Assembly (NCBI GenBank): GCA_009914755.4
Contig: CP068257.2
Coordinates: 37,088,001-37,152,000, forward strand
Direction of reading: 5' to 3'
From: the human T2T-CHM13v2.0 reference genome, Homo sapiens
Length of the DNA stretch: 64,000 nucleotides
The notes under the pieces were generated by a model, which made no database searches, had not been told where the DNA came from, and was given only the letters and a program-made list of their open reading frames with translations. The position numbers and the translations under genes are program-made. This document shows positions 17,927 to 18,207 of this stretch, one piece after another. Each line of letters opens with the position of its first letter. Positions within the stretch are counted from its first letter, which is position 1.

Positions 17927-18207
17927 TTTTGTTTTTTTTTTTTCAGACGGGGTTTTACTGTTGCTGCCCAGGGTGGAATGCAATGGCGCAATCTCGGCTT
18001 ACCACAGCCTCTGCCTCCCAGGTTCAAGCAATTCTCCTGCCTCAGCCTTCTGAGTAGCTGGGATTACAGGCATGCACCACCACACCTGGCTAATTTTGCT
18101 TCACGCCTATAATCCCAGCACTTTGGGAGGCCGAGACGAGTGGATCACCTGAGGTCGGGAGCCTGACCAACATGAAGAAACCCCGTCTACTAAAAATACA
18201 AAATTAG
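17927..18207 (-). mobile_element. Alu with internal inversion (twin-priming structure) and TSD 'gtccacc(g/a)tct'
   Basis: Positions 17927-18098 are the reverse complement of the Alu right arm with its poly-T tail. Positions 18099-18207 are the Alu left arm in the opposite orientation ('cacgcctataatcccagcactttgggaggccgagacgag...'). The whole is flanked by 'agtccaccgtctg' and 'agtccaccatctt'. Confidence 0.85.

What the first reader, a model, noticed from the sequence alone, without database searches (positions are those of the whole stretch)
17927..18207. Alu with internal inversion and intact TSD: twin-priming signature
A single insertion, bounded by the TSD 'agtccacc(g/a)tct' on both sides, consists of the Alu 3' half with its poly-T tail in minus orientation (17927-18098) joined directly to the Alu 5' half in plus orientation (18099-18207). 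The breakpoint is in the middle A-rich linker. This is the structure produced by twin priming during target-primed reverse transcription. It is well documented for L1 and much rarer for Alu.
Basis: partly seen in the sequence, partly recalled or inferred. Interest (0 to 1): 0.5.

Follow-up and report, generated by a model that had tools for sequence, protein, structure and literature searches.

The report
Alu insertion with inverted 5′ half
This is a single old primate Alu insertion whose front half was copied in backwards, the signature of "twin priming"; the event is well documented for L1 elements but seen in only about 1 in 5,000 Alu insertions, so this is a rare example of a known process and not a new one.

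Summary
Window 17944-18097 (minus strand) is the AluS right arm, consensus 130-282, with its A-tail at 17926-17943. Window 18098-18207 (plus strand) is the AluS left arm, consensus ~14-137. The two abut with no intervening DNA. One direct repeat flanks the whole composite: AGTCCACCGTCTGTT and AGTCCACCATCTTTT. The 12-nt core matches 11/12, and the mismatch is a CpG transition.

Read on the Alu-sense (minus) strand, the order is TSD, antisense 137→14, sense 130→282, poly-A, TSD. This is the layout expected from twin priming. Supporting details:
- The first nick site is TTTT/AT, an L1 endonuclease-type site.
- There are 2 nt of microhomology at the 5′ junction and 0-1 nt at the inversion junction.
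- A 6-9 nt stretch of the linker (AAAATTAG) was copied into both halves.

Both halves are AluS and both are old.

Published surveys give 0/4056, 1/5554 and 1/5936 germline Alu insertions with this structure. The one published germline example whose sequence I could read was also primed in the A-rich linker.

Orthologous primate loci could not be retrieved, so arrival in a single event is inferred and not shown. A left/right difference in CpG decay is a small unexplained anomaly.

Verdict: a real, rare, new member of a known kind, of modest interest.

The parts
17914..17928 (.). Left copy of the target-site duplication, AGTCCACCGTCTGTT. The core is 17914-17925. The T-run end merges into the poly-T tail.
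   Evidence: the repeat finder D1; pattern search; chance estimate.
17926..17943 (-). A-tail of the non-inverted Alu segment. It reads A12 C A4 C on the minus strand and G T4 G T12 on the plus strand.
   Evidence: Sequence read; the alignment extends into poly-A.
17944..18097 (-). Non-inverted (3') segment: AluS right arm, consensus 130-282. This is the cDNA primed on the poly-A tail by the first nick.
   Evidence: Rfam SRP hit on the minus strand; consensus alignments.
18090..18097 (-). Linker octamer AAAATTAG (consensus 130-137), copy 1. The same stretch is also present in the inverted half, a small duplication at the inversion point.
   Evidence: the consensus ranges 130-282 and 17-137 overlap.
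18098..18098 (.). Inversion junction. This G can be assigned either to the direct half (complement of consensus C127) or to the inverted half (consensus G14/15), giving 0-1 nt of microhomology.
   Evidence: Sequence read; alignments.
18098..18207 (+). Inverted (5') segment: AluS left arm, consensus ~14-137. It carries a later 11-bp internal deletion (consensus ~76-86, at about 18159-18161) and a 2-bp deletion. This is the cDNA primed internally on the A-rich linker by the second nick.
   Evidence: Rfam SRP hit on the plus strand; consensus alignments.
18200..18207 (+). Linker octamer AAAATTAG, copy 2. Its last two bases (AG, 18206-18207) are shared with the TSD, giving 2 nt of microhomology at the 5' junction. 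Allowing a one-base bulge, AGTCC against Alu AGCC gives 4 nt.
   Evidence: the alignment runs on to consensus 140 through the TSD.
18206..18220 (.). Right copy of the target-site duplication, AGTCCACCATCTTTT.
   Evidence: the repeat finder D1.
18217..18222 (+). Inferred first-strand nick site of the L1 endonuclease, TTTT/AT, with the nick between 18220 and 18221 on the plus strand. The plus strand is the 'bottom' strand relative to the Alu.
   Evidence: Sequence read. The motif definition TTTT/A is as used in PMC12016303 and TTTT/AA as in PMC2912911. The nick position is inferred from the end of the TSD.

Best explanation
One AluS RNA was inserted in a single L1-mediated event that used two primers (twin priming).

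1. L1 ORF2p nicked the plus strand at TCTTTT/AT. The T-run annealed to the Alu poly-A tail and primed cDNA 1, which copied the right arm back to about consensus 130 in the A-rich linker.
2. The other strand was cut about 15 nt away. Its free 3' end (...GGTGGACT-3') annealed by 2 nt (4 with a bulge) to the linker sequence UUAGCC of the same RNA. It primed cDNA 2, which copied the left arm from consensus 135-137 to about 14.
3. cDNA 1 ran 6-9 nt past the second priming site, so AAAATTAG is present twice.
4. The two cDNA ends were joined with 0-1 nt of microhomology, and the gaps were filled, producing the 15-nt TSD.

The product is a 5'-inverted Alu: left arm in plus orientation, right arm plus tail in minus orientation. 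It then aged in place, acquiring CpG decay, an 11-bp deletion and one CpG transition in the TSD.

The layout, TSD, tail, nick motif and microhomologies are shown by the sequence. The order of steps, the use of a single RNA and single-event arrival are inferred.
For: - Orientation and Alu coordinates of both halves.
- A single flanking TSD, 15 nt at 13/15 with an 11/12 core; the core mismatch is G/A at a CpG. Chance is about 2e-5.
- No second TSD and no A-tail at the internal junction.
- The halves are complementary in coverage (14-137 and 130-282). They are not duplicates of the same region, which excludes snap-back copying.
- The published definition of 5' inversion by twin priming is met in full, including microhomologies at the 5' and inversion junctions and occasional shared sequence between the two cDNAs: PMC2912911, PMC12016303.
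- Both halves score best against AluS, not J or Y: 227/211/195 and 156/129/124.
- Non-CpG divergence is 7.7% and 12%, both within the range of other old AluS copies in the window.
- The published germline 5'-inverted AluYb8 (G_4753) has the same architecture. Its left arm, consensus 20-127, is inverted and primed in the linker; its right arm is direct.
Against: - No orthologous locus could be obtained, so neither the empty site nor simultaneous arrival is demonstrated.
- CpG decay differs between the halves. The left arm keeps 4 of 5 CpGs and the right arm 3-4 of 15. Fisher p is about 0.03-0.1, post hoc on small numbers. None of 28 full-length Alus in the window is as lopsided (lowest p 0.26).
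- The prior is low: about 2e-4 per Alu, so under 1% for a window with about 35 Alus.
- The 5' microhomology is only 2 nt exact.
Confidence: 0.85

Rival explanations
1. Twin priming on two different Alu RNA molecules. The second nick was primed on the linker of another AluS RNA in the same L1 RNP or nearby, so the halves come from different source copies.
For: It gives the same layout, TSD and microhomologies. It allows the 6-9 nt overlap without strand displacement. The unequal CpG content of the halves could in principle reflect different source sequences.
Against: The closeness of the two coordinates (130 and 135-137) is what a single template predicts, and is what is reported for L1 (PMC12016303). 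If the C at the junction is Alu-derived, both halves carry the same A4 linker run, CAAAATTAG. This is weak evidence, because 3 of about 18 other Alus in the window also have A4. Both halves are AluS.
Confidence: 0.08
2. An ordinary full-length Alu inserted in minus orientation, and later a local rearrangement flipped its left arm in place.
For: It would also leave one TSD pair around both halves. The homologous left and right arms can pair as a hairpin, and such structures can promote rearrangement.
Against: One breakpoint would have to fall exactly at the Alu/TSD boundary. The event would also need a simultaneous loss of consensus 1-13 and a 6-9 nt duplication of the linker. An inversion does not predict the 2-nt match between the TSD end and the Alu linker at the junction, whereas internal priming does.
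Confidence: 0.04
3. Two independent insertions that happen to abut: a 5'-truncated Alu right arm and a separate 3'-truncated left arm (or a free left monomer).
For: Alus often land next to or inside each other, and their A-rich linker is a preferred target (PMC12016303). The different CpG decay of the halves could mean different ages.
Against: The plus-strand half has no A-tail and no TSD of its own, and the only TSD encloses both halves. The halves abut with zero spacer and have complementary coordinates. The left half is the AluS type, not the J/FLAM type (score 156 against 124). Its non-CpG divergence of 7.7% is not that of a young element. The joint chance of such an arrangement plus a spurious 11/12 TSD (about 2e-5) is far below the twin-priming prior.
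Confidence: 0.03

Closest known systems
5'-inverted L1 insertions made by twin priming (Ostertag & Kazazian 2001, as described in PMC2912911 and PMC12016303)
   Same: One TSD pair. The 3' segment with its poly-A tail is direct and the 5' segment is inverted. The inversion-point coordinates are close together with a small duplication. Microhomology is present at the 5' junction. The nick site is of the L1 endonuclease type.
   Different: The template is a 282-nt Alu RNA mobilised in trans, not a 6-kb L1 RNA acting in cis. The frequency is about 0.02% of Alu insertions, against 18-31% of L1 insertions.
Germline 5'-inverted AluYb8 'G_4753' (PMC12016303, Additional file 2)
   Same: The left arm is inverted and the right arm plus tail is direct. 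Internal priming occurred inside the A-rich linker (consensus ~127 there, 135-137 here). The inverted cDNA stops short of the Alu 5' end (consensus 20 there, ~14 here). A TSD is present, with microhomology at the junctions.
   Different: That copy is a young polymorphic AluYb8 with roughly 15 nt deleted at the inversion point. This one is an old AluS with a 6-9 nt duplication at the inversion point.
Chimpanzee-specific 5'-inverted Alu (locus 11_119157 in PMC2912911, Additional file 2)
   Same: [quoted passage not shown]
   Different: Its sequence is held only as an image, so its breakpoints could not be compared.
Closely spaced inverted Alu pairs (IRAlus) made from two separate elements
   Same: The two arms can pair into a long hairpin. 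The RNA fold is -98.2 kcal/mol with z = -4.08, and inverted repeats are found.
   Different: Here the 'pair' is the two homologous arms of one element with no real spacer, and arm-to-arm complementarity is imperfect. Origin is one insertion, not two. No effect on editing or stability was tested.

Membership tests
Alu SINE, AluS class | 7SL-derived left and right arms separated by an A-rich linker, with a 3' A-tail | tested here: met
   Rfam Metazoa_SRP hits on both pieces. Alignments cover consensus ~14-137 and 130-282 plus tail. The arms are present but in opposite orientations.
Alu SINE, AluS class | Both pieces match the S consensus better than J or Y | tested here: met
   Local alignment scores for Sx/Y/Jo are 227/211/195 (right arm) and 156/129/124 (left arm). 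Finer subfamily assignment (Sx, Sq, Sz and so on) was not attempted.
L1-mediated target-primed reverse transcription insertion | Target-site duplication of about 7-20 bp flanking the insert | tested here: met
   15 nt at 13/15 with a 12-nt core at 11/12; chance about 2e-5.
L1-mediated target-primed reverse transcription insertion | A-tail directly abutting one TSD copy | tested here: met
   17926-17943 reads A12CA4C on the minus strand, next to the TSD at 17914-17925.
L1-mediated target-primed reverse transcription insertion | First nick at a TTTT/A-type L1 endonuclease site | tested here: met
   The reconstructed target reads TCTTTT/AT at 18220/18221. The motif classes are as in PMC12016303 and PMC2912911.
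5'-inverted (twin-primed) retrotransposon insertion | Two segments of one element in opposite orientation inside one TSD pair: the 3' segment with tail direct, the 5' segment inverted | tested here: met
5'-inverted (twin-primed) retrotransposon insertion | The 3'-most coordinate of the inverted segment lies at the 5' TSD and is close to the 5'-most coordinate of the direct segment (small deletion or duplication) | tested here: met
   Consensus 135-137 lies at the TSD and the direct segment starts at ~130, giving a 6-9 nt duplication. Shared sequence between the two cDNAs is reported for L1 (PMC12016303).
5'-inverted (twin-primed) retrotransposon insertion | Microhomology between the target end and the element at the 5' junction | tested here: met
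   AG (18206-18207) is shared by the TSD and the Alu sequence TTAG. About 70% of inverted L1s show 2-5 bp (PMC2912911).
5'-inverted (twin-primed) retrotransposon insertion | Microhomology at the inversion junction | tested here: inconclusive
   At most 1 nt (the G at 18098). Assignment is ambiguous because of an extra T and a one-base shorter A-run.
5'-inverted (twin-primed) retrotransposon insertion | Both segments arrive together, and the orthologous empty site holds one TSD copy | not testable with these tools
   Flank scans of the metagenome and genome collections found nothing. ORF and protein look-ups found nothing. No coding exon was found that could be used to fetch primate gene loci.
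5'-inverted (twin-primed) retrotransposon insertion | Both segments are of equal age | tested here: inconclusive
   Non-CpG divergence of 7.7% and 12% is compatible with equal age. CpG retention of 4/5 against 3-4/15 is lopsided.

The most novel reading that the evidence does not exclude
Alu twin priming may be confined to the A-rich linker, the only long single-stranded stretch of the folded, SRP9/14-bound Alu RNA. If so, essentially all 5'-inverted Alus would be 'arm swaps': left arm flipped, right arm direct, forming a built-in hairpin. That restriction to one short priming site, and not element length alone, would explain why Alu inversions are about 1000-fold rarer than L1 inversions. Both germline cases whose sequence I could examine (this one and G_4753) fit. 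The hypothesis could be tested genome-wide from RepeatMasker tables.
Probability: 0.3. Interest if true: 0.45.

Novelty: new member of a known kind. Interest (0 to 1): 0.3.

Why it matters
Alu insertions with an inverted 5' half are documented only a handful of times: 1/5554, 1/5936 and 0/4056 germline, and 1/130 somatic. The authors of the 2025 survey (PMC12016303) state that it is unclear why twin-priming rates differ so much between element types.

A clean, old, fixed example adds three things.
- The event also happened during AluS amplification.
- Such hairpin-forming copies can persist for a long time.
- It is a second sequence-resolved case in which the internal primer sat on the A-rich linker.

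Taken alone it is a curiosity. Its value is as a template for a genome-wide search: adjacent, oppositely oriented Alu fragments with complementary coordinates inside one TSD.

Tried and rejected
**Retrieving orthologous or allelic loci**
- Exact scans with both flanks found nothing. Two scans were of metagenome contigs and one of genome contigs.
- An exact look-up of the 102-aa ORF spanning the right junction found no record.
- A homology search with its unique 70-aa part gave no hit.
- A 2384-aa concatenation of all flanking ORFs plus the best coding-potential segments gave no hit.
- These results suggest the protein collection does not hold unannotated ORFs like these, at least none from this locus.

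**Finding a gene, so that primate gene loci could be fetched**
- Pfam scans of 288 non-Alu ORFs of at least 55 aa gave no family.
- A codon-usage scan gave no convincing exon.
- ORFs under 55 aa, and the last ~6.5 kb of the window, were not scanned.

**Alternative mechanisms**
- Snap-back or fold-back copying is rejected, because the halves cover complementary parts of Alu and not the same part.
- A free left Alu monomer is rejected, because the left half is the S type and not the J/FLAM type.
- Insertion of one Alu into the linker of another is rejected. The order and orientation are wrong, and the left arm ends at the flank TSD with no right arm following it.

**Other**
- The shared A4 linker run was considered as proof of a single template. 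It is too common (3 of about 18 other Alus) to carry weight.
- The original twin-priming paper (PMC311219) is not held. I used its description in later papers.

Full report
**What is in the sequence**

The window is primate DNA rich in Alu elements: about 35 copies or fragments in 64 kb.

At the finding, Rfam's 7SL/SRP model, from which Alu derives, hits 17942-18090 on the minus strand (E 6.6e-8). It also hits 18098-18191 on the plus strand (E 5.3e-5).

Alignment to the AluSx consensus places the two pieces as follows:
- The minus-strand piece is consensus 130-282 followed by the A-tail (window 18097 down to 17927).
- The plus-strand piece is consensus 17-137 (18101-18207), extendable to about 14 at 18098.
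- The plus-strand piece has an internal 11-bp deletion and a 2-bp deletion.

As a check, I built a majority consensus from 15 AluS copies in this window. It is 282 nt long, differs from my AluSx only at 5 CpG-decay positions, and gives the same coordinates.

**The flanking repeat**

The repeat finder reports one direct repeat around the composite: 17914-17928 AGTCCACCGTCTGTT and 18206-18220 AGTCCACCATCTTTT, 13/15 identical.
- The 12-nt core matches 11/12, and the mismatch is G/A in a CpG, the commonest kind of decay.
- The core pattern occurs only at these two places, apart from one 1-mismatch site 7 kb away. The expected number of matches is 0.41, and none of 100 shuffles gave three.
- The analytic chance of an 11/12 match at the two ends with ±5 nt of slack is about 2e-5. 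At this spacing the only other such pairs in the window sit in simple repeats or tandem Alus.
- There is no second repeat and no A-tail at the internal junction.

**Layout compared with the twin-priming model**

Read on the strand where the tailed half is sense (the minus strand), the order is:

gatgat | AAAAGATGGTGGACT | antisense Alu 137→14 | sense Alu 130→282 | A12CA4C | AGACGGTGGACT | ccatag

This is the arrangement described for 5'-inverted L1 copies. One DNA end anneals to the poly-A tail, and the other anneals internally to the same RNA. Microhomologies appear at the 5' junction and at the inversion junction (PMC2912911). The two cDNAs sometimes share a short stretch (PMC12016303).

In this case:
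- The reconstructed first nick is TCTTTT/AT on the plus strand, a TTTT/A-type L1 endonuclease site.
- The TSD is 15 nt, in the usual 14-16 range.
- The last two TSD bases (AG on the plus strand) are also the Alu bases of TTAG. That gives 2 nt of microhomology, or 4 if one bulged base is allowed (AGTCC against AGCC).
- The inversion junction has at most 1 nt of microhomology (the G at 18098).
- AAAATTAG (consensus 130-137) occurs in both halves, at 18090-18097 (reverse complement) and at 18200-18207.

The halves cover complementary parts of Alu and not the same part. This rules out snap-back copying.

**Same element, same age?**

Both halves score best against AluS: Sx/Y/Jo scores of 227/211/195 and 156/129/124. 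The left half is therefore not a free left monomer of the older J/FLAM type.

Non-CpG divergence is 7/91 (7.7%) for the left arm and 14/115 (12%) for the right arm. Both are inside the spread of other AluS copies in the window.

CpG decay is uneven. The left arm keeps 4 of its 5 alignable CpGs. The right arm keeps 3-4 of 15; the script counts 4, but one of those is split by an inserted base. Fisher's test gives roughly 0.03-0.1, depending on that count and on sidedness. The test is post hoc and rests on five sites. None of 28 full-length Alus in the window is as lopsided (lowest p 0.26).

I record this as unexplained. Because the left arm's non-CpG divergence is that of an old element, it does not make a later, separate insertion likely.

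**Rivals**

- Two independent insertions. The plus half would lack both a tail and a TSD. It would have to abut the other half with zero spacer and complementary coordinates. A spurious 11/12 TSD would also have to enclose both. The joint chance is far below the low twin-priming prior.
- A later in-place inversion. This would need one breakpoint exactly at the Alu/TSD boundary, plus loss of consensus 1-13, plus a 6-9 nt duplication. It would not explain the microhomology.
- Twin priming on two different Alu RNAs. This cannot be excluded from 8 shared bases. The shared A4 linker run is too common to help. The closeness of the two coordinates favours a single template.

**Comparison with what is known**

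| Source | Alu insertions with a 5' inversion | L1 for comparison |
|---|---|---|
| Kojima 2010, human- and chimpanzee-specific insertions (PMC2912911) | 1 of 5554 | 639 of 2068 |
| RISCI, AluYa5 (PMC3024322) | 0 of 4056 | not compared here |
| 2025 long-read study, germline (PMC12016303) | 1 of 5936 (0.02%) | 18-22% |
| PCAWG somatic, as cited in PMC12016303 | 1 of 130 | not compared here |

The 2025 study says it remains unclear why twin-priming rates differ so much between element types.

The sequence of its single case, G_4753, is in the supplement. My alignment puts its inverted segment at consensus 20-127. By my reading of the sequence and the authors' marked microhomology, the direct segment starts at about consensus 143. 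That case also has the left arm flipped, the right arm direct, and internal priming in the A-rich linker.

The present copy is the same kind of object in an older subfamily, with a small duplication at the inversion point where G_4753 has a small deletion.

**Consequence of the structure**

The two Alu arms are homologous, so flipping one makes an inverted repeat. The 264-nt composite folds into one long imperfect hairpin at -98.2 kcal/mol. The shuffle mean is -76.9, z is -4.08, and 0 of 200 shuffles fold as well. The repeat finder also reports inverted arms. Whether this affects RNA editing or DNA stability was not tested.

**What could not be done**

The decisive test is an orthologous empty site, or the presence of both halves together in other primates. 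It was out of reach.
- Flank scans of the public collections found nothing.
- The protein collection holds no ORFs from this locus.
- No coding exon was found that could have been used to fetch annotated primate gene loci.

**Verdict**

The feature is a real 5'-inverted AluS made in one twin-primed insertion. It is a rare new member of a known kind, not a new mechanism.

The most novel reading still open is that the A-rich linker is the near-obligate internal priming site for Alu. That would explain both the arm-swap shape and the rarity. Two of two readable germline cases fit, which is suggestive only.

Noticed in passing
window 17944-18207: CpG decay is lopsided between the two halves of the insertion. 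The left arm keeps 4 of 5 CpGs and the right arm keeps 3-4 of 15, although both have old-element non-CpG divergence. None of 28 full-length Alus in the window is as asymmetric.
   Followed up: partly
window 17944-18207: The composite folds into one long imperfect hairpin because the flipped left arm pairs with the homologous right arm: -98.2 kcal/mol, z = -4.08.
   Followed up: partly
window 22402-22776: A (TTTC)n array of about 61 copies (22402-22643) sits exactly where the tail of a 5'-truncated minus-strand Alu right arm (22651-22776) should be. It looks like a microsatellite grown from an Alu A-tail.
   Followed up: no
window 15257-15825: Two plus-strand Alus lie head to tail about 45 bp apart. 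The second is much more diverged (76%) and has internal deletions. The sub-threshold mir-1268 and mir-3135 Rfam hits here, and the mir-1268 hit at 18041-18092, are simply Alu sequence.
   Followed up: no
window 53133-54090: A cluster of four Alu fragments, all on the minus strand (consensus 23-273, 134-282, 157-282, 61-161), probably reflects nested or rearranged insertions.
   Followed up: no
window 38751-39144: A pyrimidine tract of about 390 bp, (TC)n-like, produces long artefactual 'LSLSLS' ORFs.
   Followed up: no
window 36240-36560; 20311-20403; 20504-20590; 34137-34253: Other tandem repeats: an AT-rich (TATTTATA)n array of about 320 bp, two GATA/AGAT microsatellites 100 bp apart, and a 60-bp unit present twice.
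   Followed up: no
window 1-64000 (notably 46000-49300): No evidence of protein-coding exons. The 288 non-Alu ORFs of at least 55 aa scanned, up to about 57.7 kb, gave no Pfam family. The best codon-usage segments, including the GC-richer 46-49 kb stretch with ORFs up to 192 aa, gave no homolog in the protein collection.
   Followed up: partly
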